A stretch of DNA of 64,000 nt, from positions 1-64,000 of IMG/VR virus record IMGVR_UViG_3300045988_146009; one strand, 5' to 3'. Source of the DNA: a virus. Both the position numbers and the translations under genes were made by a program. The notes under the pieces were generated by a model, which was not told where the DNA came from, ran no database searches, and worked only from the letters and a program-made list of their open reading frames with translations. Below are positions 1 to 55,996 of the stretch, in pieces (the first letter of the stretch is position 1; every line of letters starts with the position of its first letter).

Positions 1-56
1 CCCGCTACGCCCGCTACGCCCGCTACGCCCGCTACGCCCGCTACGCCCGCTACGCA
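1..56. repeat. Tandem repeat of the 9-mer CCCGCTACG, about 6.2 copies, at the window edge
   Basis: Direct reading: cccgctacg is repeated head-to-tail from base 1. A single copy recurs at 39796..39804. Confidence 0.9.
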
Positions 57-9500: not shown

Positions 9501-10361
9501 GCTGGTTCTCCCTCCATGTGGATTCAAATGCTCATTGATATGGGTTCAAAGGAACCCCGTCAAAGCGCAGACCTGAAACAACTGGGTGGGGTATCAGCAA
9601 TCCCGGAAGCCTTTGGGAATGCCCTGCTCATGAGCTTAGGACTCCGCCCTTCTGCTGAACTTGCGGGAGGTAGGACGCTCGACTGGATGGAAAGGATAGC
9701 TACGACTGTAAAGGATAACCTCCCCCTATGGCCTACTCTGGTTCAGGGGGTGCAGACCTGGACAGGGATGAATCCGGATAGTGAAAAGGCAGGATGGTTG
9801 TTGAAGAACCTTGGCTTTGGTGTTCGTCGTCCCAAGAATATTAATGATGTCCTCCGGGACAGTCTTGCTAAAGGTAACAAGGACCTCTCCAATTCGTTGA
9901 AGAACCAGCGCATCATGGATACCAACCTTTACACGGCTGACCTTAGCGATGCAGAGTATGACAAGATTATCGAAGCTGATAAGGCTATGGTAATTGAGCA
10001 GAGTATTTCCCTCGCTAATAGGTTCCTGGCGTTGAAGGGGTTCCTCAAGGGGATGGGAGTCAAGGACGTTGACACGGTTCTTGAAGCATCTGCTCAGGAG
10101 GCGGGCATATCGTTGAAGGCTATGGATGACCTTATCTCTGGCCGGGCCAAAGACTTCATCTCTAACCAGAGGTTTGACAAGATTGAAGAGACGAGAGACC
10201 GCTTGCTTAACAGGCCCGGTATTACTCCGGAAGCTAAGAAAGCCATCCTCCGCCAGTTCCAACAAGCTGAGAAGGTGTATGACATCGACGCAGTAGATAT
10301 TACTTCCAGCTTGATTGAGCCGGATAATGTGGAGCAGGAGGTGAAGAGCCAGAAGAGATAG
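507..10361 (+). CDS. Giant virion-associated/ejected protein (3284 aa; probable true start at 591). It has an internal HExxH zincin-like motif and long Ala/Glu/Gln/Lys-rich helical regions. Candidate polyvalent/cargo protein.
   Basis: Uninterrupted 9.85-kb ORF. The motif LLHELTHVLDNH is at nt 5136..5150. No DxDGD or NADFDGD RNAP motif was found by eye. Every antisense ORF over this interval is shorter (longest 516 aa at 3588..5138) and treated as artefact. Confidence 0.85.
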   Translation: MVQKGHSLYGLCPFLFTREGLTNILYASMPNDTNQEPLTYRSFGPKNPQTEYYKQLGREQSQTRWQEGRQARAQEAQQTPLSEEAKFLDTLNKTFKQEEEASYTQEQRAYTQEQRAISAEDRGIRKEEKEESKKEKQASKRDKQIRDWLSGINTRTPGKSLGFSTEAEYEDYLTKTKPETLVDITKFKANDPEEIGRARSAVEEMGASLVLSGEHPQVAEGSFRSLEPQDKANRLLSKSKYGLTKTEDGSYVVDERFLARVNDPSTAGMGNENIARAIVNNLKSIISKEDERGRSDYLIPDVEEVTNLVRNARAKNRETYQEYEKIRERFAVPKGEEEQKAVAPEKVGEQNGGDSSRTQPTLVQHVLSEVDRFFTVNPEAMEYLNTLGAKTGEEIPGAIEDQKFREQARRGIELKDQLARAISEANPAIDLRTVRNELDDDALLYREAVSQFYGGEIPEEVSSAILNRTTQLAQQRQALVASDYAKAEKDAIAEHLKSLGLDEGVALSIGISGLTNRHIAESDTGMGTMRSAVNEALQQYQSGAGQLAASMSFGEQKGYRDPLSHMQWVNIGDGKIAYAFVDPGTNERVGNGFIVDFGNVDQQAKALGVSREAYLDNLALPFKMGNLNATDEANSLFAWDKLNGKLVENATAESTGGLAYYDNDLIERSVLRAVEAGAPAEVVDKYRENLLQLQKQNAKDMIDQMLGQYEAVANLVASDSKTLDILFPGIRLAMNAMHNDFRDYYAENKGKMTNEEIISSFLADEQNRQGFLAITMAGAKTVARYKAAAIGASQFVSEGSRIIGLGTGDPAKYNNMWENLHKEEQAINTITTRAGGVAEWGAEIGNVLLQIAETTTTGGIGGVSGRVGTMTGRLAKLFGEAVAFKAATPGTMRLGQVITKLGGGVERLVAGPGRAALTQASSRGSSLAISAKLFTDAAAPTFGEVSNATYNEEMARLAKDPATAGLPESVRMEMAQNVATTKGSIAGIGYGIFSTILNNRAGFNRMIRKATGATTKAPGIFGKLESSLEGPGIFNLKGLPGKEKAISIAKQVGRLSASAVEGGTEELADEALQWAWQTLTQHGEIREEDIASERDVWDAASKIFILGAIGGEVGHGIQAMTALPAEVSNRRDQAIQAQQLYGEAMRDALDSDVEGANTALIEALKEGLEKSSAIADAAITSKEAAMSVARNGHIQADENVINEWSSMISQLPDGASVQLNNFSAEYSRLKRIGDETGAASLHQAFVEDIAASDNLSDTQRQIAGELILQLTQGTPTAEFVEETSTQVVLPEGLEELAAVEVEEAPAPVTEELKPEGDLVEQEVEEEVVQIGERDYGYNAPNPVPFVQMLSDWYTSETPITPEIRGEMNSVLTDLELEDPDIYDFITDGKEEVDRATVRRLLTVANLTGPDGPIAVDMKGNTEIQKGNALLTDKTVWSKYDKNVEIQDSNWAADVFNMVGEGMQPIQNVLDDVLNTVQDERTRNNIKDIVEFLEERGVPVSVATIQGDSNIAGLTMMDPSSPEQHIALNFSAKNVKSSPADVLLHELTHVLDNHLRETDPLYAERVASIEEIVRSNWANIQKEAERVARTAVTEEEQAEIDQFIAEMEQALFNKQTEFEGGREFLPNVITNPIMGEVIAQGNLPFDQALDQWASPNNLARISQIGRGKVSRIVHNLINAVSSILKGAQVVEGKVNPNTAVIRVEEGTLADPTRMKIVSPKLAEYKPGVEDENVFITDRGVDAALFSSSENFVGAGKRLFRTANVKGGFTADKRTGKKVKEFAGNFQTYVNELVARNERTKRYVTQQTKGMEDSERATVINSIVNYTGDLGNTLDPKVTRRIFAETNNKVEQARVAREAEVDAANNEYAKFIADRRKAIIQAEARVNALAGTQALQNVGVAITQAVQVAKEVPQVDEKNPMAVAAARFRKAQEELNPVMKEIYSTLDEDAKAEMNEAYDKTMKAIAEDLAQDFDNPAEIVPGLLSIGGLQNVPSVDDLSAMFTSVIKANRLGWLKKDADAVRAAKDITVAQQARRERIAQAEKNYQTKVGRGGMKNGVWTSPGTVWLERDAAMRAEKNRMETVYAMKRNEARKELLKYPFGARLLNVLDDNRRAIATMEANLMQRRGAIGLGTKVRDFTYLSRTFAAVGKESINFRKAMMELLDSNGEVKPEFTHLVGILNNAIQSYMRENISRYNRGISETLDNMLAMSKVADELGLDGSEYLGFKGKDVWKNVSEYLTKDPALAESALNTINNGHWNEIAKMKDGSVELRLIINKASQLDNLLSSADVGEKSRLRSKMRKAKADLMNKAAEDYVLSSMGVTDTDLRSFLLGLNSPEQITEAFKSTPYLDSSVISNLMGTDENLRTRISNTMDYVRKSTAIEMQKQGVNLTANQRDMSLLADGEVADALIATARNVFKETLSKERNEENIFANRKNLMDSELQILGVRGFSNLTDAFGVIQNTLSSQGRAYVNQVITHDVARSLERHGVVTGERTKENTHLLEFQNKANPLNGMYAERDIALVLYQAMRPDEAIMRGKEFGKKLQSHWGNNWGMLRSIGGFVSMLTLVRTPSATLRNMAGTMGQSLNAGALPFDKGVIKGYGEVYQLAQDFVVANILSAAGSVGVRGAVNSEIMANAEKRFNQSMQRYRDLGLLDAGAANFMKEQWKQGLNEMSQKEGSEISLPDEDAMFSSLVSELGDRSTAKKAMDLAKRIAYGTFVSPMSVAASAYSVPDVIAKIILFNGESHKVSKVVKAELAQAEKLSRAGKEDKLTSYMKDALAAKKEGTLTSYIERRAADRTKNLLPTGARTPDWVNKVSIFGMPFFSFMYHTWQSVPYSIGYGMEELRAARFATNTADKVSLYMDATQKFGGAILGQYAMMELMRFALPIVTQAIMGMVTGDDEEDKMQMLEASSFTRWLARNAGLSADYDQNGELFFWFDKDNETFIVQDGQYLLPYKSLGETLGAIINLAGLNPFSDKSEANQFEDDYTAQLLDYVQSTAGSPSMWIQMLIDMGSKEPRQSADLKQLGGVSAIPEAFGNALLMSLGLRPSAELAGGRTLDWMERIATTVKDNLPLWPTLVQGVQTWTGMNPDSEKAGWLLKNLGFGVRRPKNINDVLRDSLAKGNKDLSNSLKNQRIMDTNLYTADLSDAEYDKIIEADKAMVIEQSISLANRFLALKGFLKGMGVKDVDTVLEASAQEAGISLKAMDDLISGRAKDFISNQRFDKIEETRDRLLNRPGITPEAKKAILRQFQQAEKVYDIDAVDITSSLIEPDNVEQEVKSQKR
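519..552 (+). terminator. Putative intrinsic terminator hairpin (8-bp stem with one mismatch, T-run)
   Basis: GGGCACAG...CTGTGTCC followed by TTTTCTCTTT. It lies inside the 5' end of the longest version of the giant ORF, which suggests the real start is the ATG at 591. Confidence 0.4.
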
Positions 10362-11920: not shown

Positions 11921-11974
11921 TGTTACTGGACTATAGCAGGGGAGATTAAAATGTAAAGGGTCTCTTGTGTCATA

Positions 11975-12012
11975 CAAAATAAAACCCCAGGAACGCGCCA
12001 ACGTTCCTGGGG
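11975..12012 (-). terminator. Minus-strand intrinsic terminator (11-bp perfect stem) followed by TTTTATTTTGTATGACACAA
   Basis: CCCCAGGAACG-cgccaa-CGTTCCTGGGG. On the minus strand a T-run follows, then the recurring GTATGACACAA motif. Confidence 0.65.
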
Positions 12013-12043
12013 TAGGTGTATTCATGTATTAGCCGCAAAAATT

Positions 12044-20247: not shown

Positions 20248-20279
20248 TTCTTTTTGTCTTTCTATTTTTGTTTGTAGTT

Positions 20280-20972: not shown

Positions 20973-21065
20973 TTTCTTTTGTCTTTCTGTTTGTTGTGCC
21001 GGACGTTTTGGCCTCCGGCTCGCCTTACATGAACAGTTATACCATAGGAGCAGGGAAAAACAAGA

Positions 21066-21905
21066 CTAATCTTTTTTGTCTTGTGTCATACACCAATTAA
21101 ACGCCGCTTTACCTTGTTCAGAAATGGCCCATGGACTAAAAGAACGGTGGACAATACGGGGGCGGGTAACCACTTCTGCTAGAATACATCCATCTTCTTC
21201 CATGCTTTTATTACAATTGCATGGCATAGGGGTTCCCTTGCATTCTCCTCCCCTGTTTTTACGAATATGGCTCTCATAATCCATTGTTAGTAGCAATTCC
21301 TTTAACTCTTTCATGGCCTTATAATTATGGATAGGGTAAGCCATTCGCAAAGAGGTAGAGCTAAAATTCTCTGACTCTAAATAGATTGTGAGATAAAACT
21401 CCTTATTCTCCGTGTTTTCCGTAACGTGTGCAGTATACACGGCTTCCTCACCCTCCAAAATGTTCACAACGTCAGCCTCATACTCAATATATTGAGTTTC
21501 AGGGAGTTCTTCCGTTTTTGCAGGTTGTTTCGGAGCGTCCTTAATGGGCGTAGCGTACACATCAACCGTTGCACAGGGGAGGCCAAAACAGGGATATTGA
21601 TTAAAAGAATCCTCCGTTCCCTCAATTTCGACAATTACCTTCCATTCAGCGCGGAAATCGTCAAGTTCAGCGCGGTCTTCCTCGCTAAGTTCGCCTTCAT
21701 CATCTCCATACCCCATTAAATAAGGGAATGCCCATTGAGGAACGCCCTCAACCCTTTCGTAACTGTCTGACGTTTCATCCGTTTCAGATAAGATAATGTA
21801 CGTACTTCCGCAATGGGGGCATAGTCCGTTTAGAGGCGTAACGCTTCGGTTATCGCATTCCATGCAGTCATATTTTTCGTTTTCGTCGATAATAACAGTG
21901 CTCAT
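21066..21905 (-). CDS. Hypothetical protein with an N-terminal zinc ribbon (CMEC...CPHC), 279 aa
   Basis: ORF. The conserved 5' leader repeat lies upstream at 21906..21975. Confidence 0.6.
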   Translation of the reverse strand: MSTVIIDENEKYDCMECDNRSVTPLNGLCPHCGSTYIILSETDETSDSYERVEGVPQWAFPYLMGYGDDEGELSEEDRAELDDFRAEWKVIVEIEGTEDSFNQYPCFGLPCATVDVYATPIKDAPKQPAKTEELPETQYIEYEADVVNILEGEEAVYTAHVTENTENKEFYLTIYLESENFSSTSLRMAYPIHNYKAMKELKELLLTMDYESHIRKNRGGECKGTPMPCNCNKSMEEDGCILAEVVTRPRIVHRSFSPWAISEQGKAAFNWCMTQDKKD

Positions 21906-22029
21906 TTTTATGTTTTCTATTTTAGTTTGTTGGTTGGTTGCGGGGTTGTGTTCCCCTTACGCAATCCTTTATATTATATTAGAGGGGAAACGCAAGGGAA
22001 ATGTTCATGCCTTGTGTCATACTTAACTG

Positions 22030-22332
22030 TTAAGGCTTTACGAGGTATTCTTTATAAATCTTCAACGCTTCTCCATGCGTTCTTGGTGCTTCATTCCCAT
22101 CTATGGCTCCCCACATGCTTAATATTTCAAAGTTCGTTTCCGTCCTTTTCATGGACAAAACGGCATAAATGTTATACTTTAGTTGTCCATCTTTCCGGAA
22201 AGCCTTGTCTTTAGGTATGTCATTGTCTATAGCTAATGGGCCGTTAAACGGTTGCTTGAAAAACTTAAATTCCGTAACTTCCTCATTTGCATAGGGGTAC
22301 AAATCTTTCGTCCAATAATATACTTTTTTCAT
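22030..22332 (-). CDS. Hypothetical protein (100 aa)
   Basis: ORF. The perfect palindrome GTTCCACGTGGAAC lies 10 nt upstream of the start. Confidence 0.5.
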   Translation of the reverse strand: MKKVYYWTKDLYPYANEEVTEFKFFKQPFNGPLAIDNDIPKDKAFRKDGQLKYNIYAVLSMKRTETNFEILSMWGAIDGNEAPRTHGEALKIYKEYLVKP

Positions 22333-22376
22333 TTTAGGATTGTTCCACGTGGAACATTTTAGTTATTGATTTGTGA

Positions 22377-22946
22377 TTAGGCGGTTATAGTCTTTTTGAC
22401 TGATAGAGTCAAATGGTAGCGGGTAAAACAAGCTCCTGTATCCGAATCATAAGAACAATTGGCCCGCAACTCTTCATGTTCTGCTTCAACCATTTCCGCT
22501 AGTTCGTTAGGCGAACAATCCAGAACAGGGGTGTACGCCTCAATTTTGGTGAGGAAAAAGTTGGCTTCAATTTCTTTTGTCTTCCCTCCGTTCTTTCTTA
22601 CAAGGTTTTCCACCGTGCCTAGTGCCGCGGTCAGAATCTCCTTGCGTTTATCCTGCAATATGGTAATAATCGCAAGCGGCTTTCCTTCAATGCGTTGGAT
22701 ACGGGAACAAACCAAAAAGCCTTGTTTGTGCAATACATTTAAAGCAACGTCTTTTTTGTCCACCGGAACGGCAATGCGTCGAATGTTGTGCTCTACCTGC
22801 TTCTCCGTTGCTGATTGCAGGTCATAAACCTTACAACCTAAGCCTGTTAAGGTATTCAGGATGATTTTTGAAAAAAAGTCTTTACGCATCTTTTTGAATA
22901 AGCCATGTTGTTTCGGTAGTTTCCCGGTCAAATCCAATGCTTGCAT
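22377..22946 (-). CDS. Hypothetical protein (189 aa; start possibly at 22889)
   Basis: ORF. The long form overlaps the 22882..23115 ORF. Confidence 0.5.
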   Translation of the reverse strand: MQALDLTGKLPKQHGLFKKMRKDFFSKIILNTLTGLGCKVYDLQSATEKQVEHNIRRIAVPVDKKDVALNVLHKQGFLVCSRIQRIEGKPLAIITILQDKRKEILTAALGTVENLVRKNGGKTKEIEANFFLTKIEAYTPVLDCSPNELAEMVEAEHEELRANCSYDSDTGACFTRYHLTLSVKKTITA

Positions 22947-23115
22947 AAGACGGCCCTACAAAGTCACTGACTTCACGGACGATTTTAATGTCTGGACCTG
23001 CTTTAGCTAAAACCCTTAATAGCAGGTTCTTTCCGGGTTTAAAAGAGAGTTCTACTTTTTCAACTCCTTCCCGGTTGTTCAAATGGCTTAATGCTTCAAA
23101 TAGTTTCTTGTTCAT
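22882..23115 (-). CDS. Hypothetical protein (77 aa)
   Basis: ORF only. Confidence 0.4.
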   Translation of the reverse strand: MNKKLFEALSHLNNREGVEKVELSFKPGKNLLLRVLAKAGPDIKIVREVSDFVGPSYASIGFDRETTETTWLIQKDA

Positions 23116-23120
23116 GTTTT

Positions 23121-23537
23121 TTATGCGTTAAAGTTAAAGGCTTTTTGAATATTTTTCCCCTGTACCGTTACGGACGTGAGGGAATACATTTTATACTGCA
23201 ACATGTGTATGTTTTGTTCAGACTTTAGGGCAAGGATTTTTGAATCATACTTGTTTGTCTTATCAATCGCCACCTCTACCACGGCACAATAGGCAAACCA
23301 TAAGAGAGTTAATGCGCTTGCGTAAACTCCAACGATACAAAAAAGCTCCGTTACGTTGGTTCCGTTGTAAATCTTGGTTGCCAAAATGATGACAAGAATA
23401 AAGGCAAGCCATGCAGAGATTCTTTCAAAGTTCAATCCATCCAAGGCCCTATATATTCCCCGCCACCTTTTAAATGAGCGGGTGAGTTCCGAAATCTCAC
23501 GGGCGTGAACAAAGCTAGCGTAAAAAGCGTATTTCAT
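23121..23537 (-). CDS. Integral membrane protein (2 TM helices), 138 aa
   Basis: Hydrophobic stretches WLAFILVIILATKIY and LFCIVGVYASALTLLWFAYCAVV. Confidence 0.5.
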   Translation of the reverse strand: MKYAFYASFVHAREISELTRSFKRWRGIYRALDGLNFERISAWLAFILVIILATKIYNGTNVTELFCIVGVYASALTLLWFAYCAVVEVAIDKTNKYDSKILALKSEQNIHMLQYKMYSLTSVTVQGKNIQKAFNFNA

Positions 23538-23542
23538 AAATG

Positions 23543-23743
23543 TTAGAAGTTAAGGGCCGATATAAAACGCTTCATTTCAGCGATAGAGGTGCATTCAAAT
23601 GTTAGTGCTGGATTCCAATTTGAGCGGAAAATAAATCCTCCCTCCGTTTTCTGAACATAGGCAAAGGTGGAGAGCAATTCTTCCCTATCATGGATAAAGC
23701 TATTTTCCAGTCTGTCCAGAGCATCAATGTCTTTCTTATTCAT
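23543..23743 (-). CDS. Hypothetical small protein (66 aa)
   Basis: ORF. Conserved leader AACTAAAATAGAAAAATG. Confidence 0.4.
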   Translation of the reverse strand: MNKKDIDALDRLENSFIHDREELLSTFAYVQKTEGGFIFRSNWNPALTFECTSIAEMKRFISALNF

Positions 23744-23855
23744 TTTTCTATTTTAGTTTTAGGCGGTTGCCTCGTTACGTGTTTCTTTATAACATTTTTG
23801 AGCAGGTAAACAAGGAAAATGTTCATGCCTTGTGTCATACTTCACTGTTAATCAG

Positions 23856-24191
23856 TTATGCAGAAAAATTAAAATTTAGCATATCCGGGTGCGTGGTAAA
23901 TTGTAGTTGTCTATCCTCAAAAATGACAAATCCTAAGATGTTGCTATCAATACTCATTCTCTTTTTTAACTCTATAGCGAGATTGTGGAGGACGGTATGC
24001 CCGCATAAGGTCCACGCTAGCATTGCGTGGCTTACAAGCTCCCCTGCATCATTCCGGGTTATGGGGTGGATGTGGATGCCTTGTCTTCCAACGTCATCAT
24101 ACAAGTCCCACAACATAAATTGGTTATCATACACAATGCAATCCGGGAAAATCTCCTTCAAATCCTGCAAATATTCTTTTATTTCTTTCAT
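23856..24191 (-). CDS. Hypothetical protein (111 aa)
   Basis: ORF only. Confidence 0.5.
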   Translation of the reverse strand: MKEIKEYLQDLKEIFPDCIVYDNQFMLWDLYDDVGRQGIHIHPITRNDAGELVSHAMLAWTLCGHTVLHNLAIELKKRMSIDSNILGFVIFEDRQLQFTTHPDMLNFNFSA

Positions 24192-24218
24192 GGTTCTATG
24201 TCTTTCTAATTTAGGGGT

Positions 24219-24554
24219 TTAAACTAAGTCAATAGCGCGTAAAAACAAACGCTTGTCATGGTCAAAATAGGTCCACCCGTACTTTCCGAGGTTGTATCCG
24301 GCTACTTTCCTATCTCCATGTATCCGGTGAGGCATCCATTCGACACTGATATTTTCTTCCCCTACCCCGTGGATGACGGCATGAGTTCCTTCCTCCATCA
24401 ATTCCCGGAGGGTTCCGAAACGGACAAAACTGCGGGCAACTTGGTAGTGTGTATGACCTTCCTTTTTGTAATACTCTTCTGCAAACTTATGCAGGCCCTT
24501 GCTTGGTTTTTGTATGATTATCATTGTTTTATGTCTTTCCAGTTTATTTTCCAA
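24219..24554 (-). CDS. Hypothetical protein (111 aa)
   Basis: ORF only. Confidence 0.5.
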   Translation of the reverse strand: MENKLERHKTMIIIQKPSKGLHKFAEEYYKKEGHTHYQVARSFVRFGTLRELMEEGTHAVIHGVGEENISVEWMPHRIHGDRKVAGYNLGKYGWTYFDHDKRLFLRAIDLV

Positions 24555-24831
24555 GGGATATTTTAGTAAGGGCCTCCCTCATTTTCTCCATGCTAGCGGC
24601 GTATATAAAATGACGCACAAGGGGAGTTGCATCCGTGCGGGTTGCAAGATAACCTAACCCTGTTTTATCAATCCAATAAGGCACTGATTCCAGAGTTATC
24701 CTTGCCCCTTCTGCCCCTAATTTTTCCAGCTCCAATAGTGCTTTTAAATCGTTGGATGTTAACATTTTCTTGTATCTTTCTATTTTAGTTCGTTGCTTGG
24801 TTGGTTGTAGGGTTGTGTTCCCCTTACGCAT
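24544..24831 (-). CDS. Hypothetical protein (95 aa)
   Basis: ORF. The conserved 50-nt leader lies upstream at 24832..24860. Confidence 0.45.
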   Translation of the reverse strand: MRKGNTTLQPTKQRTKIERYKKMLTSNDLKALLELEKLGAEGARITLESVPYWIDKTGLGYLATRTDATPLVRHFIYAASMEKMREALTKISLGK

Positions 24832-24911
24832 TCTTTATAGCATCTTTGAGCAGGGGCACAAGCGTTTTATTTCACGTTTGTGTCATACAAAATTGTTCCA
24901 CGTGGAACTTT

Positions 24912-25604
24912 TTATCTCTCCGCATGTTCTTTTACCTTGTCACGTTTAACCAACGGCAAGACGGGAGGAAACACCCCGCTTGCGTAGTCCTCCCGGCTAA
25001 CTCCCTGCCAAGCATAACCTTTGTATGTAGGCTGACGGCGTTTTACTACGTTGTTAATTCCAGCCGCTAACCCCTTTACCGCCCGCGCCGCATCCCAGTA
25101 ACTAGGATACATGGTGATAGGCTCCAGGGTTTCCCGGTTTATCTGCATGACGGGCCGCGCGGATTTGTGCAATCCCTTTTCAATGTTCCCCTTCAATGTC
25201 TTTTTCCGTTTTTTCACGCAGTTACCGTAACGTATGTTTTCCCGGTGAGTACACCATTGCAGATTCTCCGCACGGTTGTTCATGGGGTTTTCATCTAAAT
25301 GGTTTACATCTAACTCGCTTATTTTGTACCCTTTAAGATGCGCGCCTAACGGCACAAACGCACCCGCAACAAGGCGATGAACATAATATTTATAGTGCCA
25401 TCCTCCCTTTTCATCCAGCAAGGGAACATATTTATAACCGTTCCGGCTAGTCTGGATGCGTAAAAGCCTGTTGACAAGCTTGCTCCACACCGCGCCCATG
25501 TTACTCACAAGGTACAATTCCCTGCAACCTTTCAGCGGTACAGGTTCCCACAGTTCCCCCGGTCTAGTACATTCAGCTAGTGTCTTCTTCTCCTTCTTCT
25601 TCAC
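24912..25604 (-). CDS. HNH homing endonuclease (HNH_3 core plus a C-terminal AP2/NUMOD-like DNA-binding region)
   Basis: Motif LDVNHLDENPMNNRAENLQWCTHRENIRYGN. The C-terminal part carries YKGYAWQ. Confidence 0.7.
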   Translation of the reverse strand: MKKKEKKTLAECTRPGELWEPVPLKGCRELYLVSNMGAVWSKLVNRLLRIQTSRNGYKYVPLLDEKGGWHYKYYVHRLVAGAFVPLGAHLKGYKISELDVNHLDENPMNNRAENLQWCTHRENIRYGNCVKKRKKTLKGNIEKGLHKSARPVMQINRETLEPITMYPSYWDAARAVKGLAAGINNVVKRRQPTYKGYAWQGVSREDYASGVFPPVLPLVKRDKVKEHAER

Positions 25605-25789: not shown

Positions 25790-25835
25790 GTCTCCTTTAT
25801 ATAGTAGGCACGCCGTTTTTCAAGCTTTTTGTGCG

Positions 25836-25871
25836 CCATTTCCCCGCTTTTCAAGCTTTTTATAGTGTACC
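25836..25871. promoter_or_regulatory. Direct repeat TTTTCAAGCTTTTT x2, 22 bp apart, at the left edge of the control region
   Basis: Read directly. Candidate promoter or operator element for the leftward block. Confidence 0.35.
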
Positions 25872-26199
25872 GCAATTGTTGCGTTAGCCCTAAAAACTGC
25901 ACCATTACTGTTACTTTTGGCTTTCTTTGGACTTTCTCCCGAATTCCTTCGCACAGAAAGGGGCCTATAAGGGCCTTTTGAGCAGGGAGCCTTACTATTA
26001 TACCCGGCGATTTTGCCCGCCCGTATACGCAAACCTCATGCGTTTTATTTTCGCCAATTCCGCACTTTTCGCCCTAAACGTACTAAGTGCACCTAAAATG
26101 GTACATAAATCATCCATTCGTAACGGAAAGAGTACTATTCACTTTTTATACAACTGTATACATTCTGGCATTTCGTACCGTTATAGGTACTGGTTCGTA

Positions 26200-28110
26200 T
26201 CATTTCCGTGCTATACGCCCTAAACGGTCTTCCCGTTCGTGTAGGGAGTAATGGGCATTTCGTCCTTTTCGTTCGTGTAGGGCGTGGAGTCTGCTACGTC
26301 ATTCCGGTCCATGTAGTGCATTCCGTTCACTTCGTTCTTCCGTCCTTCTGGTCCATGTAGTTCGATTAGGGCGTGTAGTGCGTATAGCTCCATCTAGGGC
26401 ATTCCATCCTTTCAGTCCCTATAGTTCGATTAAGGCATTCCGTTCACTTCGTCCTTTAAGTCCGTATAGTGCGTTTAGTGCGTTTAGTGCGTTTAGAGTT
26501 TTACATTTTTGTAAAATATCAACATATCATGATGTGTAAATATGTTGTTTCCTATTGACCCCTTCACTACATATCGGGGCATATAATGGGAGAGACACAC
26601 TATATGTAGTGTTCTCTGCTCTATCAGGCACCAATCATTTTGACGAATATCAAAATGTAAAACTAAAAATTTATACGTTTGAGAGGTTTTGTATAAAGAT
26701 TATATACACTTGTATACAAAGTGAGAGTAAAAGGTATTTGTTTCCCATTGGCACCATACATCATGTAGTGCCTATTGGTTACGGGAACACTACATACAGG
26801 AGTCATGATAACATATCTACATATCATGATATGATGATGTTTTACATTTTTGTAAAACTAAAAGGAGAGAAGCCTCTTCTGTTTCCTATTGACCCCTTTA
26901 TATTTCAGAGCAGGGAAATTCCAACACTCCGGACTTCACGCACTAAACGTCACTTTACGTTCTAAGTCAACACGTTACGCATATCCGCAACCGATTAGGC
27001 ATTACAAACGTTTCTCGAAATTATCTCTTAAAAAACAAATGTTATTTCATAGTACGTATTGATTATTAGGGACTTACGTTTTCAATGTCGTACATAAACG
27101 TAATGATAATATTAGTTCAGAAAGGTACGCTATCGGCGTAGAATACAATAAGCCCCCTGAAAAAGGTACTTGAATCGGTGCATTTCGAGCGTGAAAATCG
27201 CTTAGAACGTGAAGGACACCACGACGGTGACTCCCCCTTCGAGCGTAACGCGCTCATTAGTAAATCATTAGGTCACATTTTTCCGGAAATGGGGTTTCTG
27301 CTTTTTCAAAATGGGCCCCATGCCGAGGGGACACCACGGGTCTCGATTGCCTTTTCCTGCTCCGGCGTGGGCCTAAAATAGGCGAGAGGGGGTACGTATG
27401 GACAGACTGTACGTGAACGGGGGTGTGAGGGGCCTTCTATGGGCCTACGCATAGGTGAGTGCGGTTGAGGTCATTTAGCCCGGAAGGTCCATATTGGGAT
27501 GGAAATTCCTGAACTATTTTCATAACTGCCTCAGTGATAATCATTTTATGGAGCAGGGAAGTCCAAATAATCCGATTGTGTGATGATGTGTATATTTTGA
27601 ATACGAGATAACTTCACTCTCCAGGTTACGCCCTAAATCCTTAATTTTTAATAATATATAAATACTGTGTACTATGTAATATCTAATTACTATATAGAGG
27701 TATAAAAATATTTATTATTTAATATAAAAATAATACCAAAAAAGAAAAGAAGAAAAGACGAAATTGAAAAAGTAAAAAAAAATAATTCTAGGTCTATATG
27801 GGGGAGGGGGGAATAACAACACACACTATGCCCCTTTTTTTCACTGCTTGTATTTACATATTAAAGGGTTATGGTGTGAAAAGACACGTAAATATCGTGA
27901 ATACGCATCTGCACACTTTTTGATACAGTAACACAAGTTTTCACCACGTTATCCCAAATTTATACCTGTTTTAACCCCATTTTGTACATTACCATTATAT
28001 CTTGGGATATTCTGTTATTCTCTAAAAAACACCAAATCGAATCGCCCTACACGCCCTAATCGTACCTAAGCGGACCCTATCGCACTCCACGTTCTCTACG
28101 TCCTCTTCCT
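26200..28110. repeat. Complex non-coding repeat region, candidate replication origin and divergent control region. It holds iteron-like direct repeats, nested inverted repeats and small palindromes.
   Basis: Direct repeats: CGTTCGTGTAGGG x2, GCATTCCGTTCACTTCGT x2, TGCGTTTAG x3 in tandem (26470..26496) with an inverted copy at 26939..26949, and GTTTCCTATTGACCCCTT x2 (26547 and 26881). The palindrome TTTTACATTTTTGTAAAA occurs twice (26499 and 26839). A 16-bp inverted pair CGATTAGGGCGTGTAG (26353..26368) and CTACACGCCCTAATCG (28047..28062) flanks the region. No credible ORF lies anywhere in it. Confidence 0.6.
27641..27795. other. Extreme A+T-rich tract (~155 bp), candidate DNA-unwinding element, followed by the G-tract GGGGGAGGGGGG
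   Basis: Direct reading: taatatataaatactg...aaaaataataccaaaaaagaaaagaagaaaagacgaaattgaaaaagtaaaaaaaaataatt. Confidence 0.5.
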
Positions 28111-28173
28111 CCCAAAACCCCCTCTTCGCCCCTCTCCTCCCCAACTTTTTCTCTCCGCACACGCAAATTTAGG

Positions 28174-28202
28174 TTGACTCTTTCTCTGCTACCTGCTATA
28201 TC
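28174..28202 (+). promoter_or_regulatory. Sigma70-like promoter TTGACT-N17-TATATC upstream of the primase gene
   Basis: The hexamers are read directly, about 80 nt upstream of the ATG at 28282. Confidence 0.45.
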
Positions 28203-28281
28203 TCTCCCACACGCGAAGGACCTGTTTTACCCCTTCGCACCACCAAATGCCACATCCTATGTGGCCAAACACTAATCGAAC

Positions 28282-31699: not shown

Positions 31700-31706
31700 C
31701 CCTTTG

Positions 31707-31730
31707 TATACGCATAGGTTTATGCGTATA
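31707..31730. promoter_or_regulatory. Perfect 24-bp palindrome TATACGCATA-GGTT-TATGCGTATA. No T-run on either side, so a candidate operator (dimeric DNA-binding site).
   Basis: 10-bp arms read directly. The partial motif GTATGACAAAAAG follows immediately. Confidence 0.5.
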
Positions 31731-32007
31731 TAGTATGACAAAAAGGATGGAGATTGTTCTTGAAATAATGACTACGCGGTGGTAGGGTCTGTTCATGGAC
31801 ACAGAACAAGATGAATGGAAATCCTGCACGACTTGCGCTTATGCCATCTGGCCAGGAGCTTCCTACCCCTGCTCGGTTTGCAACTATAAGGACATGTGGG
31901 TTCCACAGGAAGGGGACGGGGACGAAGAAGATTCCAAACATGGGGGTGAAGCCGAGTACGAATAAAAGCTAAATATTATACAGTAAAAACTTACACCTGT
32001 CAAGCCA

Positions 32008-36105: not shown

Positions 36106-36390
36106 ATGAACCAACGAAAGAAACTTCAAAAAGAACTTACCGCCAATCGGATTTCAATGCGCCACCTGAGACGGTTGGCGTATAGTCTTGAATCCAAGGG
36201 AGATTTAACCGCTACGCAGTGCATCATTGTAAACAACAAGATTCCCCTTTTCTTCAATTTCTCTCCTTCCATTCCCGTCAACTTCAAACCCATCTACCCC
36301 TTCATTTACAATCACGCTTATTGGATGAAGGACAAAAAGGACTGGGCTTTGACCTGCTACGAAGACGACAGTTATGCTTACAATAAATAG
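36106..36390 (+). CDS. Hypothetical protein (94 aa)
   Basis: ORF. It overlaps the HNH gene start by 17 nt. Confidence 0.4.
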   Translation: MNQRKKLQKELTANRISMRHLRRLAYSLESKGDLTATQCIIVNNKIPLFFNFSPSIPVNFKPIYPFIYNHAYWMKDKKDWALTCYEDDSYAYNK

Positions 36391-37114
36391 TATGGATACT
36401 TCTAGTGAAATATGGGGGATTATTAAGGATTTCCCGAATTACAGTGTAAGCACTTTAGGAAGAGTAAAAAATAACCTTAGTGGGAAATTGTTGTCACTTT
36501 CAACTTCTCAAGGAGGATATTATTTTGTAGCTCTATATCGAAATAATGGTGGAGATAAAAAATATCTTCGGGTAAATCGTCTGGTGGCGATGACGTTTAT
36601 TCCGAATCCTCATAATAAATCTCAAGTAAATCATATAGATGAAAATAAAAAGAATAATAGATGGGATAATTTAGAATGGACTACACCTACGGAAAATAGA
36701 AATCATGGGACAAGTATTATTCGTTCAGCAAAAAGTCTCAGTCCCGCGGTTGTCCAATATTCTTCAACAGGTTATTTTATTGCAGAATACCCAAGTGCTG
36801 TGGAAGCAAGAATAGTTACAGGAGTATCTAATTTAGCCATTGCTAAATCATGTAGAAAAGAAAGGGCGATGGGGGGAGGCTATCAATGGAGAAAAAGGGA
36901 GGATGATTACCCTCTTCAAATTGAATCCGCAGTTGGACCTATTAAAGCGATACTTAAATATAGCCCTACAGGGGAACTTCTTTGGATATATTCAAGTATA
37001 AAAGAAGCGAGCGAAGATACCACGGCTACTCTTTCAAATATTGTAAGTAATATAAAAGGAAGGAAGAGTGTAAAAACAGTAGGGGGCCACATTTATAGAG
37101 AGGAAATAGTATAA
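36374..37114 (+). CDS. HNH homing endonuclease with an N-terminal NUMOD4-like motif
   Basis: N-terminal WGIIKDFPNYSVSTLGRVKN, then HNH_3 core NHIDENKKNNRWDNLEWTTPTENRNHG. The codon usage is AT-rich and unlike its flanking genes. Confidence 0.7.
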   Translation: MLTINSMDTSSEIWGIIKDFPNYSVSTLGRVKNNLSGKLLSLSTSQGGYYFVALYRNNGGDKKYLRVNRLVAMTFIPNPHNKSQVNHIDENKKNNRWDNLEWTTPTENRNHGTSIIRSAKSLSPAVVQYSSTGYFIAEYPSAVEARIVTGVSNLAIAKSCRKERAMGGGYQWRKREDDYPLQIESAVGPIKAILKYSPTGELLWIYSSIKEASEDTTATLSNIVSNIKGRKSVKTVGGHIYREEIV

Positions 37115-40628: not shown

Positions 40629-40707
40629 AATCCTTGACTAACCGAGGTCTCTAACTGTAAACTGCGAACACGATTAAGAACGTGTTCGCAGTTTTACTTT
40701 ATACCCC

Positions 40708-43764: not shown

Positions 43765-43796
43765 GCCCCGTCTAGTAGGCGGGGTTTCTTTTTTGT
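43765..43796 (+). terminator. Intrinsic terminator followed by TTTTTTGTATGACACAACAC
   Basis: GCCCCG...CGGGGT stem, then TTTCTTTTTTG. The GTATGACAC motif overlaps the ATG of the next gene. Confidence 0.55.
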
Positions 43797-44696
43797 ATGA
43801 CACAACACAATATTGATAGAATCTATTTCTATGGTATAACTCAACAAGACATGGCCATTTCAAAAGCTGAACAACGAAAGAAAGAACGGATAGCCAAGAG
43901 CAAGGCCCGAAGGAACCGTGGCATAAAAAAACATGATGTAGACAAGAGTGACCTTCGACCCCGGAATTTTCAGGAGCTTATGTACAAGTGGCTCCCCGCT
44001 ACCCTTGAATTTAATTACAGGGGAGAAGACTTTGATGTATATGATTACTACGCCGCAGGAACAAGCGGAGGTGGACAGAACCCCCTTGCTATCGGTTCTA
44101 CAAATGGGGCATTAGAAATCATTGGGTACACCAAGTTCCCAAGTACTCCCTATGCAGTAAGATGTGTATGTGGTCGAGTAATGAAGCTGAATATTAAGGA
44201 CTTCAACGAACACCCCCACTGTGGGTGTTTTTTCCGTGCTGTCCGAACAGCCTACCTGATTCGCACCCGCATTGAAGCAGTTCGCTCCTGGCTGAATAAT
44301 GTGGGAGACTGGTTACTTGACCTTGAAGTTATCGAGGATTATATGGTAGACTTCATTGATAAGTCCCGAGGTCTGGACCAAAGGAAAACCCCCTATGTGA
44401 GAAAGTCCCCCGCTGAACCATTCATCAATTTACTTCACGGGAAAACTGACCCAATGCCGCAGGAATTTCTTGATTTCTTCCTGCTCATTTCTACGACGAA
44501 AAGCTATAAAAAGCTCCTTACAGAACTCGTTGATAAGAACAGCGAATACCCTTTGTGGGAAGCTATTCCCCTCAGCGACATGTCCGAGTATGAGAGGGTG
44601 AGCAATTCCCTCCCGGAGTTTGATGCGGCAACCTTCATTAATCTTATCCACCATCTCAATGAAACAGAAGCTTCCAAGTTTACGGAGGGTAGTTAA
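43797..44696 (+). CDS. Hypothetical protein (299 aa)
   Basis: ORF only. Confidence 0.6.
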   Translation: MTQHNIDRIYFYGITQQDMAISKAEQRKKERIAKSKARRNRGIKKHDVDKSDLRPRNFQELMYKWLPATLEFNYRGEDFDVYDYYAAGTSGGGQNPLAIGSTNGALEIIGYTKFPSTPYAVRCVCGRVMKLNIKDFNEHPHCGCFFRAVRTAYLIRTRIEAVRSWLNNVGDWLLDLEVIEDYMVDFIDKSRGLDQRKTPYVRKSPAEPFINLLHGKTDPMPQEFLDFFLLISTTKSYKKLLTELVDKNSEYPLWEAIPLSDMSEYERVSNSLPEFDAATFINLIHHLNETEASKFTEGS

Positions 44697-45194
44697 CTCC
44701 GATAAGACTTCCAAGAACAAAGACCTTACAGCCAATGGGTGGAGAACCAAGACTGGAAAGTGTATGGATGCCGGAACATGGGGAGATGCCTATAGATTCC
44801 AGAAGGTCTTCTTTACCTTCGTAAAATCCAATCAGAAGATGCAACCTCTTCTAGGTGAGAGTGCTCCACATTACAGTCCGTATTCCCCTACGTGTCCCGT
44901 CACCATAGCTCGTGGAACGAAGGTCGAGGTAGTTGATGCTTTTCGAATAAATATTTTCAGTAGTGAACGGAACCATCCTCCGTTTGAATTAAAACCCAAT
45001 AACCTAACCACCAACCAATTCTTTCCCCTGCTTTACCACCCCTTCATTGAGGCCCAGCTTTATTATAGTTGGTATCCTATGATGCGCTTAATGTGTCAAG
45101 ATAGAGCATTTTTATTGACACCACTGGGGTGTGTAACGTATGGTAAGAACCAACCAACTACGGTTAACACAGAACAACGTAATCAAATTATCTA

Positions 45195-49933: not shown

Positions 49934-49964
49934 AATAGCTTGACATAATCAACCTAAAAAGTGT

Positions 49965-50012
49965 AAAGAAGGTACATCAATTAACGATGTACCTTCTTTT
50001 GCTTTTCATCGT
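49965..50012 (+). terminator. Strong intrinsic terminator (14-bp perfect stem AAAGAAGGTACATC, 7-nt loop, T-run)
   Basis: Read directly, between the scaffold-like and capsid genes. Confidence 0.75.
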
Positions 50013-55893: not shown

Positions 55894-55931
55894 AAGGGTT
55901 GCGGTAAGTAATCCGACCTTATAAAAATTCA

Positions 55932-55972
55932 GCAACCCCGCTTTGTATGACACAGAGCGGGGTTGCTTTTTA
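55932..55972 (+). terminator. Intrinsic terminator whose loop carries TTGTATGACACAG
   Basis: GCAACCCCGCT...AGCGGGGTTGC, an 11-bp stem, then TTTTTAT. Confidence 0.6.
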
Positions 55973-55996
55973 TCTATATTGCATTATCCTCAAACC

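What the first reader, a model, noticed from the sequence alone, without database searches (positions are those of the whole stretch)
21906..24860. Long conserved 5'-leader and promoter repeats shared by unrelated early genes
The ~50-nt leader TGCGTAAGGGGAACACAACCC..CAACCAACCAA...AACTAAAATAGAAA precedes the ATGs at 21905 and 24831 at about 90% identity. It spans 21906..21975 and 24781..24860. A 37-nt block (G)GAAAATGTTCATGCCTTGTGTCATACTT-ACTGTTAA is duplicated at 22001..22036 and 23814..23851. A shorter TAGAAAGACA-(4-8 nt)-ATG element recurs before the genes ending at 20247, 20972, 24191 and 24554. These repeats indicate modular promoter/UTR cassettes, possibly carrying translation-enhancer or sRNA-binding signals, and point to recombination-driven shuffling of early genes.
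Basis: seen in the sequence. Interest (0 to 1): 0.55.

Follow-up and report, generated by a model that had tools for sequence, protein, structure and literature searches.

The report
Repeated promoter–leader cassettes in gut phage
An uncultured ~69-kb gut phage carries four copies of a ~110–145-base "plug-in" control unit (promoter, 5' hairpin, ribosome-landing leader) in front of unrelated small genes; related phages show these units being kept, lost and swapped, a pattern already known from T4-type phages.

Summary
The repeats are real and far above chance. All genes here are on the minus strand. Four intergenic cassettes sit upstream of ATG 24765, 23743, 21905 and 20972. They share one architecture: GTATGACACAA, 16–17 nt, TTG, 19 nt, TATAA(A/C) (TGn-extended in three), 6–7 nt, GTAAGG (predicted start site), a short GC hairpin, an unstructured A/C-rich tract, and an A-rich (T)AGAAAGACA-N7-ATG initiation region without a Shine-Dalgarno sequence.

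Diverged relatives recovered from metagenomes keep the cassettes at the same positions. However, the P3 leader was replaced by a P1-type leader, P2 is absent from one relative, neighbouring genes are inserted or replaced, and identity breakpoints fall at the cassettes. This supports the reading of modular promoter/UTR cassettes that act as recombination joints. Nothing supports sRNA binding.

The closest known analogue is the PeSL cassettes of T4-type phages, so this is a new member of a known kind. One side lead emerged. The same upstream motif, at the same spacing, precedes a conserved chromosomal promoter in Akkermansia, which is SD-scarce. Akkermansia may therefore be the host.

The parts
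24766..24908 (-). Cassette P3, upstream of the 73-aa gene (true start ATG 24765). Elements: palindrome 24895-24908; GTATGACACAA 24878-24888; TTG-N19-TATAAA 24834-24861; predicted start site G 24827; 5' hairpin 24807-24827; TIR TAGAAAGATA 24773-24782.
   Evidence: promoter half 94% identical to the L013 ortholog but leader only 55%
23744..23851 (-). Cassette P2, upstream of the 66-aa gene (ATG 23743). Elements: GTATGACACAA 23830-23840; TTG-N19-TATAAA 23786-23813; predicted start site 23778; hairpin GAGGC/GCCUC within 23761-23778.
   Evidence: absent from relative L013 and carrying a different leader in L011
21906..22033 (-). Cassette P1, upstream of the DUF6926 gene (ATG 21905). Elements: GTATGACACAA 22012-22022; TTG-N19-TATAAA 21968-21995; predicted start site 21960; hairpin GGGG/CCCC 21942-21960; CA-rich leader.
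   Evidence: ortholog in L012/L013 87% identical in the promoter half
20973..21091 (-). Cassette P4, upstream of the GNAT acetyltransferase-like gene (ATG 20972). Elements: GTATGACACAA 21081-21091; TTG-N19-TATAAC 21036-21063; predicted start site 21028; hairpin GCCGGA/UCCGGC 20998-21028; TIR AGAAAGACA 20980-20988.
   Evidence: in L012 the hairpin changes A-U to G.U, which is compatible only with the RNA sense strand
26897..26924 (-). Promoter of the same class (TTG-N19-TATAAA with CCCTGCTC in the spacer) but without GTATGACACAA. It is the first promoter of the minus-strand block, inside the large non-coding region.
   Evidence: ortholog at L013 5616
25790..25823 (-). Promoter of the same class whose TATAAA lies 6 nt before ATG 25789, so the transcript is probably leaderless.
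   Evidence: the L013 ortholog has TATAAA, 7 nt, then ATG, with a different intervening sequence
43795..43840 (+). GTATGACACAA (43795-43805) directly after a strong terminator, followed by 7 nt and TTGATA-N16-TATAAC. This is the short-spacing variant of the promoter, on the + strand before the gene starting near 43881.
   Evidence: not conserved in relatives L016 and L018
11930..11975 (-). GTATGACACAA (11965-11975) directly after a strong terminator (11984-12013), followed by 7 nt and TTTACA-N16-TATAGT. Short-spacing variant.
   Evidence: conserved in L011
24895..24908 (.). Perfect palindrome GTTCCACGTGGAAC flanked by an A-run and a T-run. It resembles a weak bidirectional terminator and lies immediately upstream of P3.
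   Evidence: 2 copies against 0.19 expected; flagged as terminator-like; conserved in L011, L012 and L013
22342..22355 (.). Second copy of the palindrome. In relatives it abuts cassette P1. Here the 100-aa gene is inserted between the two.
22030..22332 (-). 100-aa ORFan inserted between the palindrome and cassette P1. It is absent from L011, L012 and L013.
20248..20264 (-). Intercistronic initiation region TAGAAAGACA-N7 before ATG 20247, with no promoter.
   Evidence: (D2/D4)
24192..24208 (-). Intercistronic initiation region TAGAAAGACA-N7 before ATG 24191.
24525..24541 (-). Intercistronic initiation region TGGAAAGACA-N7 before ATG 24524. It is identical in L013 and marks a jump from about 50% to about 97% identity.

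Best explanation
The repeats are four copies of a composite transcription-and-translation start cassette on the minus strand. Each cassette appears to hold five functional parts.

(a) An 11-nt asymmetric upstream element, GTATGACACAA, at about -61 to -51. It is probably a binding site for a host or phage factor, or an UP-like element. It sits one helical turn closer to the promoter in two other promoters of the genome.

(b) A sigma-70-family promoter with a weak -35 (TTG), a 16-nt spacer and a TGn-extended -10 (TATAAA).

(c) A start site at the conserved GTAAGG.

(d) A 5'-proximal GC hairpin. Its sequence differs between cassettes but its position does not. Its likely role is to protect the mRNA 5' end.

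(e) An unstructured A/C-rich tract ending in an optimised Shine-Dalgarno-independent initiation region, (T)AGAAAGACA-N7-ATG.

Because the cassettes share 40-80 nt of near-identical sequence, they also act as homologous recombination joints. Leaders, whole cassettes and the adjacent ORFan genes are exchanged within and between related phages.

Shown: the repeats, their geometry, their conservation and the mosaic joints. Inferred: promoter activity, the start site, the hairpin function, the factor binding and the early timing.
For: Repeats are far above chance.

Geometry. GTATGACACAA-N16/17-TTG-N19-TATAA is constant in the four copies and in distant relatives L014, L021 and L022. Seven of 8 TTG-N19-TATAA hits are intergenic and in the sense orientation. 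Leaderless geometry is conserved in two phages despite different intervening sequence.

Start site. GTAAGG lies 6-7 nt after the -10 hexamer in all four cassettes.

Hairpin. All 13 leadered cassettes examined, in the window and its relatives, have a hairpin within about 25 nt of the predicted start. There are six different stem sequences, and shuffle z-scores range from -1 to -5.8. One A-U to G.U change is compatible only with the sense RNA.

Initiation signals. SD-like 4-mers occur in 9 of 73 upstream regions, G is depleted, and A peaks at -6 (60%) and -3 (49%). This matches the determinants in PMC6847099.

Footprint. The P3 promoter half is 94% identical to its ortholog, while the flanking 73-aa protein is 50% identical.

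Shuffling. The window P3 leader is 82% identical to P1 but only 55% to its positional ortholog, and the L011 P2 leader is of the P1 type. P2 is absent from L013. The w111 gene is replaced by an unrelated 81-aa gene, and w100 is inserted. Identity between L011 and the window switches from 86% to 98% exactly at the palindrome/P1 junction.

Generality. A more distant clade has its own 4-6-copy cassette with the same architecture: A-tract, TTGACA-N16-TGCTAYTAT, 5' hairpin, CA-rich leader, ACTAAAAATATG.

Host-type element. The same motif at the same spacing precedes a conserved TTGCAT-N16-TATAAT chromosomal promoter in two Akkermansia MAGs.
Against: There are no transcript data, so no start site or promoter activity has been demonstrated.

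The -35 is weak (only TTG). The conserved CCTGCTC block in the spacer is unexplained, and its distance to the -10 varies (5-8 nt).

If the host is a Bacteroidota, the promoter does not match the sigma-A consensus TTTG/TAnnTTTG. None is found in the window.

The host is unknown. The Akkermansia link rests on one orthologous locus within a scan whose total hit count equals chance. Tetranucleotide usage does not support it.

The hairpin between GTATGACACAA and the -35 is not kept in two orthologs.

The mosaic joints are correlative. Recombination could simply be tolerated in any intergenic DNA.
Confidence: 0.7

Rival explanations
1. The cassettes are promoters for a phage-specific transcription system rather than for the unmodified host holoenzyme. 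Candidates are a virion-delivered RNA polymerase (possibly within the 3,284-aa ORF at 507-10361) or host polymerase redirected by a phage factor that reads GTATGACACAA and/or CCTGCTC, in the manner of T4 MotA/AsiA.
For: Conservation goes well beyond a normal -35/-10 pair: the upstream 11-mer, a spacer block and the initial transcribed sequence are all conserved. The promoter does not fit the Bacteroidota consensus. A giant ORF with no detectable homologs sits among the structural genes, as in N4-like and crAss-like phages.
Against: Bipartite TTG-N19-TATAA geometry with a TGn extension and 6-7 nt to the start is the signature of sigma-70-family holoenzymes. The giant ORF has no DFDxD motif, no T7-like motifs B or C, and no PDB, Pfam or PHROG hit. 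The same motif and geometry occur at a conserved Akkermansia chromosomal promoter. Consensus TTGACA-type promoters are used throughout this phage and its relatives.
Confidence: 0.12
2. The whole conserved block is transcribed from elsewhere and acts at the RNA level, for example as a processing or attenuation signal, a structured riboregulator or an sRNA target. On this view the -35/-10 resemblance is incidental.
For: A hairpin (CAAGxx...xxCUUG) with different inner pairs lies between GTATGACACAA and TTG in most copies. GTATGACACAA often directly follows terminators. The genes are co-oriented, so read-through RNA would contain the block.
Against: No Rfam family matches. The hairpin is lost in two orthologs. 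The fixed N19 spacing between TTG and TATAA is also found in promoters that lack the rest of the block, including two with leaderless geometry. Leaders are exchangeable while promoter halves stay positional.
Confidence: 0.1
3. GTATGACACAA is an operator for a phage repressor or shut-off protein, analogous to the asymmetric 13-bp 'stoperators' of Cluster A mycobacteriophages. The cassettes would then be repeated mainly because they are regulated together.
For: The motif is asymmetric. It is mostly co-oriented with transcription and lies at gene boundaries on both strands. Stoperators are cited as a transcription-regulating repeat class in PMC3203893.
Against: No repressor, integrase or recognisable DNA-binding domain was found in the block (precomputed Pfam; PHROGs). 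Only about 6-9 sites exist. The motif is conserved at an Akkermansia chromosomal promoter, which points to a host factor. This rival overlaps with part (a) of the main explanation.
Confidence: 0.06
4. The repeats are non-functional remnants of recent local duplications, or a selfish MITE-like element.
For: Copies within the genome can be more similar to each other than to their orthologs.
Against: All copies have a strict orientation and position directly upstream of start codons. No terminal inverted repeats or target duplications are present. The cassettes are conserved at orthologous sites across phages with 50-60% protein identity, and conserved more strongly than flanking genes. Element spacing is preserved even in distant relatives.
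Confidence: 0.02

Closest known systems
PeSLs (promoter-early stem-loops) of T4-type phages (Arbiol et al. 2010, PMC2839356; Comeau et al. 2014, PMC4122927)
   Same: Both are repeated intergenic cassettes of about 100 bp concentrated in ORFan-rich variable regions. Both are bounded by the upstream stop codon and the downstream initiation signal and start codon. Both contain a sigma-70-like promoter and a stem-loop. Both are associated with insertions, deletions and replacements between close relatives and are proposed as homologous recombination joints.
   Different: The phage lineage is unrelated: TerL has no hit among 50,697 isolated phage records. There are 4 copies rather than about 50. 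An additional conserved far-upstream 11-mer is present. The most consistent stem-loop lies in the 5' UTR rather than acting as a terminator. The initiation region has no Shine-Dalgarno sequence. Promoter and terminator activity and mini-circles are untested here.
Tripartite middle/late promoters of crAss-like phage phi14:2 (10.1101/2020.03.07.982082)
   Same: Both are phage promoters made of an upstream block plus -35-like and -10-like blocks, repeated upstream of several genes and read by host RNA polymerase in an SD-scarce host.
   Different: The phi14:2 promoters I read directly carry the Bacteroidota -7 element TAnnTTTG and an A-tract upstream block. The cassettes here carry TATAAA and GTATGACACAA, and no TAnnTTTG.
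Start-associated sequences (SAS/ESAS) of Cluster K mycobacteriophages (PMC3203893)
   Same: Both are short asymmetric repeats at a fixed small distance upstream of the start codons of unrelated non-structural genes, conserved across related phages and proposed to act in translation initiation. This is the analogue of TAGAAAGACA-N7-ATG.
   Different: SAS contains an SD core (AGGAG). The element here is purine- and A-rich with no anti-SD complementarity, and it fits the A(-3, -6, -12, -13) rule of SD-independent initiation.
5'-terminal stabiliser stem-loops of bacterial and phage mRNAs, such as the ompA 5' UTR (own knowledge, not tested here)
   Same: [quoted passage not shown]
   Different: The function is inferred only from position and from structural conservation without sequence conservation. 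The host RNases are unknown.

Membership tests
PeSL-type mobile regulatory cassettes | Repeated conserved intergenic motif concentrated in a variable, ORFan-rich region | tested here: met
   Four full copies lie within 20.9-24.9 kb of the small-gene block, and none elsewhere. The neighbouring genes are ORFans.
PeSL-type mobile regulatory cassettes | Contains a sigma-70-like promoter | tested here: met
   Met by sequence only: TTG-N19-TATAA(A/C), with a TGn extension in 3 of 4, GTAAGG 6-7 nt downstream, and conserved leaderless geometry at two sister promoters. Promoter activity was not tested.
PeSL-type mobile regulatory cassettes | Contains a stem-loop that terminates or attenuates upstream transcription | tested here: inconclusive
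   The palindrome GTTCCACGTGGAAC followed by a T-run precedes P3 and, ancestrally, P1. A hairpin overlapping the -35 is present in most copies but lost in two orthologs. Only P4 has a U5 tail.
PeSL-type mobile regulatory cassettes | Insertions, deletions and replacements between related phages map to the cassettes | tested here: met
   Leader swap; loss of P2 and replacement of w111 by an unrelated 81-aa gene; insertion of w100; the 86%/98% identity breakpoint at P1.
PeSL-type mobile regulatory cassettes | Host phage is a T4-type myovirus (the group in which PeSLs were defined) | tested here: not met
   The genome is about 69 kb. It has PolA, a VapE-like primase and a TerL with no hit in INPHARED. 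It works like a PeSL but is not a member of that sequence family.
PeSL-type mobile regulatory cassettes | Formation of cassette-bounded mini-circles | not testable with these tools
   This needs PCR or long reads on phage DNA.
Bacteroidota sigma-A promoter | -33 TTTG and -7 TAnnTTTG | tested here: not met
   There are zero TTTG-N17-22-TAnnTTTG matches. The six non-coding TAnnTTTG matches found lack a TTTG at -33 spacing and are not placed as sense promoters of the annotated genes. The positive control phi14:2 does have the element.
Canonical sigma-70 promoter | TTGACA, 17+/-1 nt, TATAAT | tested here: inconclusive
   The -10 matches 5 of 6 (4 of 6 in P4, TATAAC), with a TGn extension in three of the four cassettes. 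The spacer is 16 nt. The -35 matches only TTG. Full TTGACA versions occur in relatives and elsewhere in the window.
N4-type virion-RNAP hairpin promoters | DNA hairpin (5-7 bp stem, 3-nt loop) just upstream of the start site, plus a giant virion RNA polymerase with T7-like motifs (own knowledge of the family) | tested here: not met
   The hairpins here have 6-16-nt loops and lie at -50 to -30, or downstream of the start. The giant ORF lacks motif B, motif C and DFDxD, and has no PDB hit. The regex and sequence tests are weak for very divergent enzymes.
Any Rfam RNA family | Covariance-model match | tested here: not met
   There are no matches in 10-29 kb at E<=1 apart from two chance-level hits elsewhere.

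The most novel reading that the evidence does not exclude
GTATGACACAA is a host promoter element (an activator or UP-type site) of Akkermansia. This previously unclassified family of ~69-kb human-gut phages infects Akkermansia and has copied that element, together with host-style SD-less leaders, into portable expression cassettes. If so, the cassettes would be the first defined strong promoter/5'UTR parts for Akkermansia, the phage group would gain a host, and a new transcription-factor site would be defined.
Probability: 0.3. Interest if true: 0.6.

Novelty: new member of a known kind. Interest (0 to 1): 0.4.

Why it matters
The finding shows that the mobile regulatory cassette mode of phage genome evolution operates in an unrelated, uncultured and apparently prevalent human-gut phage lineage. 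Until now it has been described in the T4-type phages.

It also gives a precise, testable anatomy of transcription and SD-independent translation start signals for a host that is genetically hard to work with, probably Akkermansia or a Bacteroidota. Such cassettes are natural candidates for expression parts.

The analysis corrects two start codons and offers a host lead.

It is not a new principle. Repeated early promoters and leader modules are well known in phages.

Tried and rejected
1. Close relatives. Searches in INPHARED and IMG/VR found nothing real (leader 20-mer, DUF6926 protein, PolA, motif plus CCTGCTC). The five IMG/VR pattern hits were single chance matches inside genes.

2. Primase homologs. 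The search returned only the protein's own cluster.

3. TerL. It has no match in isolated phages and none in GTDB genomes.

4. CCTGCTC as an independent motif. It is too common in coding DNA (42 hits), and its distance to the -10 varies.

5. Bacteroidota promoter consensus. Absent.

6. Giant ORF as an RNA polymerase. No motif or homology support.

7. Rfam. Nothing.

8. tRNAs. None.

9. Tetranucleotide comparison with the Akkermansia loci. Uninformative.

10. Literature search for the motif string. Only unrelated primers.

11. The phi14:2 supplement with promoter logos is not held, so I read the promoters directly from the genome.

12. TerL homolog P0018 from NCBI. It turned out to be a metagenome contig, not a host genome.

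13. Reading ATG 24831 as an N-terminal extension. Rejected: the ATG lies upstream of the predicted start site, and the equivalent frame is closed in L013.


Full report
CONTEXT. The window is most of a ~68.8-kb phage genome. Identical sequence is found on 20 metagenomic contigs, the longest 68,820 bp. The + strand carries a 3,284-aa ORF with no detectable homologs (507-10361), a VapE-like primase (28282), PolA (34038), a helicase, an exonuclease, TerL (41271) and tail genes. The finding lies in a minus-strand block of about 33 small, mostly ORFan genes (10.8-26 kb). This block diverges from the replication genes across a 2.5-kb repeat-rich non-coding region (25.8-28.3 kb). No gene has a Shine-Dalgarno sequence. 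SD-like 4-mers occur in 9 of 73 upstream regions, G is depleted to 4-15%, and A peaks at -6 (60%) and -3 (49%).

OBSERVATION. All three repeat classes exist (D3, D5, D2/D4). In pairwise blastn, P1 and P2 share 41 nt at 95% (E=1e-13), and the P1 and P3 leaders share 34 nt at 94% (E=2e-9). AGAAAGAYA occurs 8 times against 1.6 expected. The palindrome GTTCCACGTGGAAC occurs twice against 0.19 expected. GTATGACACAA occurs 14 times at up to 1 mismatch against 0.77 expected. It is present in four copies upstream of ATG 24765 (P3), 23743 (P2), 21905 (P1) and 20972 (P4). A profile built from these copies finds exactly those four in 64 kb.

ATG 24831 is inside the cassette, 3 nt after the -10 hexamer. 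The same ATG in relative L013 opens a frame that closes after 8 codons. ATGTTAACATCYAACGATTTA at 24765 is the conserved start. The '24554' gene starts at ATG 24524.

ANATOMY. From 5' to 3', each cassette contains:
- for P3, and ancestrally P1, the palindrome followed by a T-run (a weak terminator-like hairpin);
- GTATGACACAA;
- 16-17 nt that usually form, together with the following CTTG, a hairpin CAAGxx/xxCTTG whose inner pairs differ between copies (GG/CC, AC/GT, CAAA/TTTG);
- TTG;
- 19 nt, often containing CCTGCTC;
- TATAA(A/C), preceded by TGn in three of the four;
- 6-7 nt;
- GTAA(G/C)G;
- a 4-6-bp GC hairpin;
- an A/C-rich unstructured tract (CAACCAACCAAC...);
- ACTAAAATAGAAA or TAGAAAGACA, then N7, then ATG.

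WHY IT IS A PROMOTER. TTG-N19-TATAA has 8 matches in the window. Seven are intergenic, in the sense orientation and upstream of genes: the four cassettes plus 26924(-), 25823(-) and 43813(+). At 25823 the hexamer lies 6 nt before ATG 25789. In L013 the orthologous hexamer lies 7 nt before the ATG, with a different intervening sequence. That is the geometry expected for a leaderless transcript, and it independently calibrates the hexamer as a -10 element. In the four cassettes the conserved GTAAGG begins at the equivalent distance. Full-consensus TTGAC(A/T)-N17-TAnnnT promoters, each followed by a 5' hairpin, also precede the primase and several other + strand genes. A more distant clade (L015, L021, L022) has its own repeated cassette with an A-tract, TTGACA-N16-TGCTAYTAT, a 5' hairpin, a CA-rich leader and ACTAAAAATATG, in 4-6 copies per genome. 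The polymerase used is therefore a sigma-70-family holoenzyme.

The Bacteroidota consensus (TTTG/TAnnTTTG; PMC6847099) is absent. The middle promoters of the Bacteroidota phage phi14:2, which I read directly, do carry TAnnTTTG. One caveat: the phi14:2 study also shows Cellulophaga RNA polymerase transcribing the T7 A1 promoter in vitro. Promoter type alone therefore does not exclude a Bacteroidota host.

THE UPSTREAM 11-MER. GTATGACACAA lies 16-17 nt upstream of TTG in the four cassettes and in the single class-A cassette of L014, L021 and L022. It lies 7 nt upstream of the -35 at 11965(-) and 43795(+), both directly after strong terminators. The two spacing classes differ by 9-10 bp, about one helical turn, which keeps the motif on the same face of the DNA. 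This arrangement, combined with a weak -35, is typical of activator or UP-element sites. That reading is an inference.

A scan of 185,579 species genomes for the full geometry gave 8 hits, about the number expected by chance. Two of them, however, are the same chromosomal intergenic region in two Akkermansia species. The order there is: stop codon of an rlmN-like gene, GTATGACACAA, N16, TTGCAT, N16, TATAAT, 9 nt, then the ATG of a secreted transglycosylase-like gene. All 20 element bases are conserved while the spacers are about 65% identical. Akkermansia gene starts in that locus lack SD and have A/C-rich leaders resembling the phage's, for example AAAATAGAAAAC. Akkermansia is also listed among the few 'SD-scarce' bacteria outside Bacteroidota (PMC10783764). 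This makes Akkermansia a credible host and suggests a host factor reads the motif. The evidence rests on one locus, and tetranucleotide usage gives no support.

THE LEADER. All 13 leadered cassettes examined, in the window and its relatives, fold into a hairpin within about 25 nt of the predicted start. Six unrelated stem sequences are used: GGGG/CCCC, GAGGC/GCCUC, GCCGGA/UCCGGC, GGGGC/GCCUCU, GUUCCC/GGGAAC and GUACCU/AGGUAC. Shuffle z-scores range from -1 to -5.8, and the remainder of each leader is unpaired. In P4 the L012 ortholog changes an A-U pair to G.U, which is tolerated only in the sense RNA. A conserved position with free sequence argues for a structural role. The most economical reading is protection of the mRNA 5' end; this rests on established knowledge of 5' stabiliser hairpins and is not tested here.

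The 3' part places A at -3, -6, -12, -13 and -14 with fixed 7-nt spacing. These are the positions shown to enhance SD-independent initiation in Flavobacterium (PMC6847099). The same element serves as a stand-alone intercistronic initiation region before ATG 20247, 24191 and 24524. No Rfam family matches, and nothing suggests an sRNA partner.

COMPARATIVE EVIDENCE FOR SHUFFLING. Relatives were reached through homologs of the DUF6926 protein and of TerL. The cassettes sit at orthologous positions in L012/L013. Flanking proteins there are 50-95% identical to those of the window, varying gene by gene.

Promoter halves follow position. P3 is 94%, P1 87% and P4 79% identical to its positional ortholog. 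Leaders do not follow position. The window P3 leader is 82% identical to window P1 and 74% to L013 P1, but only 55% to L013 P3, which has a shorter, different leader. The L011 P2 leader is of the P1 type (80%), not the window P2 type (53%). P2 is missing altogether in L013, where only its terminal initiation region remains. The gene upstream of P2 (w111) is replaced by an unrelated 81-aa gene. A 100-aa ORFan is inserted exactly between the palindrome and P1 in the window only.

The identity profile against L013 is a mosaic, and its steps fall at cassettes and initiation regions. For example, identity is about 50% across the 73-aa gene and then about 97% from the 24524 initiation region onward. 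L011 is 98.3% identical to the window downstream of P1 but 86% upstream of it, with the switch at the palindrome/P1 junction. These are the signatures described for PeSL-mediated modular shuffling in T4-type phages (PMC2839356; PMC4122927).

VERDICT. sRNA binding is unsupported, and early timing is inferred only.

The feature works like a PeSL but is not a member of that sequence family. It differs by the conserved far-upstream element, the 5'-UTR hairpin and the SD-less initiation region. Novelty: a new member of a known kind, in a novel phage lineage. Interest is moderate (0.4). Most of it comes from the clean anatomy, the direct evidence of cassette and leader exchange, and the host and promoter-element lead towards Akkermansia.

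Noticed in passing
L028 6704-6757 (-) and L030 1183-1236 (-); compare window 24834-24888: Two Akkermansia MAGs carry GTATGACACAA-N16-TTGCAT-N16-TATAAT-9nt-ATG in the same chromosomal intergenic region. All motif bases are conserved while the spacers diverge. Akkermansia genes in that locus also lack SD and have A/C-rich leaders. This is a possible host lead for this phage group.
   Followed up: partly
window 507-10361 (+): A 3,284-aa ORF at the end of the structural block has no Pfam, PHROG or PDB match and no DFDxD or T7-like polymerase motifs. Its size and position recall the virion RNA polymerases of N4-like and crAss-like phages, but nothing supports that here.
   Followed up: partly
window 25790-28281: A 2.5-kb non-coding region lies between the divergent gene blocks. 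It holds 9-nt iteron-like repeats (AGTGCGTTT x4 at 26459-26496, and a looser 35-nt direct-repeat family (63-80% identity) across 26249-26490), a 50-nt inverted repeat (26497-26546 and 26810-26859) and an AT-rich stretch (27600-27800). It is a likely replication origin and/or genome terminus. It is largely conserved in L013, with indels.
   Followed up: no
window 1-55: A perfect tandem repeat CCCGCTACG x6 lies at the very start of the window, probably inside a gene that runs off the window.
   Followed up: no
window 25789 (-), 10431 (+), 61207 (+): Several genes have a -10-like hexamer only 6 nt before the ATG (TATAAA, TATATT, TACACT). This suggests leaderless mRNAs. The 25789 case is conserved in L013.
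   Followed up: partly
window 28170-28260 (+), 40633-40700 (+), 49938-50000 (+), 45125-45190 (+): Consensus-like TTGAC(A/T)-N17-TAnnnT promoters precede the primase and other + strand genes; three of the four are followed immediately by a GC hairpin and all by a CA-rich leader. The 45.1-kb leader contains AACCAACCAAC, like the P1 and P3 leaders.
   Followed up: no
window 24912-25604 (-) and 36374-37114 (+): There are two HNH homing-endonuclease genes. One ends 4 nt before the palindrome and P3 cassette. Distant relatives carry one or two larger NUMOD4/HNH genes at the same place, directly upstream of their single GTATGACACAA cassette.
   Followed up: no
window 22030-22332 (-): A 100-aa ORFan is present only in this strain. 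It is inserted between the palindrome and cassette P1, is flanked by CCTAAA/CCTTAA microhomology, and has no promoter of its own.
   Followed up: partly
window 31700-31760 (+); L013 ~770-810 (-): A hairpin with compensatory changes between the two phages (TATACGCATA/TATGCGTATA versus TATACACAGA/TCTGTGTATA) is followed by a conserved GTATGACAAAAAGGATGGAGATTGTTCTTGAAATAA. No TTG-N19-TATAA promoter follows it, and its function is unexplained.
   Followed up: no
window 55930-55975 (+): An intrinsic terminator (GCAACCCCGCT ... AGCGGGGTTGC followed by T5) has a loop that is TTGTATGACACAG, so the upstream motif is embedded in a terminator loop.
   Followed up: no
L015 3191-3290, 5274-5360, 6015-6110, 8305-8412; L021 and L022 equivalents: A more distant clade of the same phage group has its own 4-6-copy cassette: A-tract, GTATTGACA, N16, TGCTAYTAT, 5' hairpin, CA-rich leader, ACTAAAAATATG. 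Its -35 context GTATTGACA resembles GTATGACACAA.
   Followed up: partly
window 20232/20247, 20942/20972 and 24765/24831: Start codons in the public gene calls disagree with the conserved initiation-region spacing and with orthologs. ATG 20247 and ATG 20972 are favoured over 20232 and 20942. ATG 24765 is favoured over 24831.
   Followed up: partly
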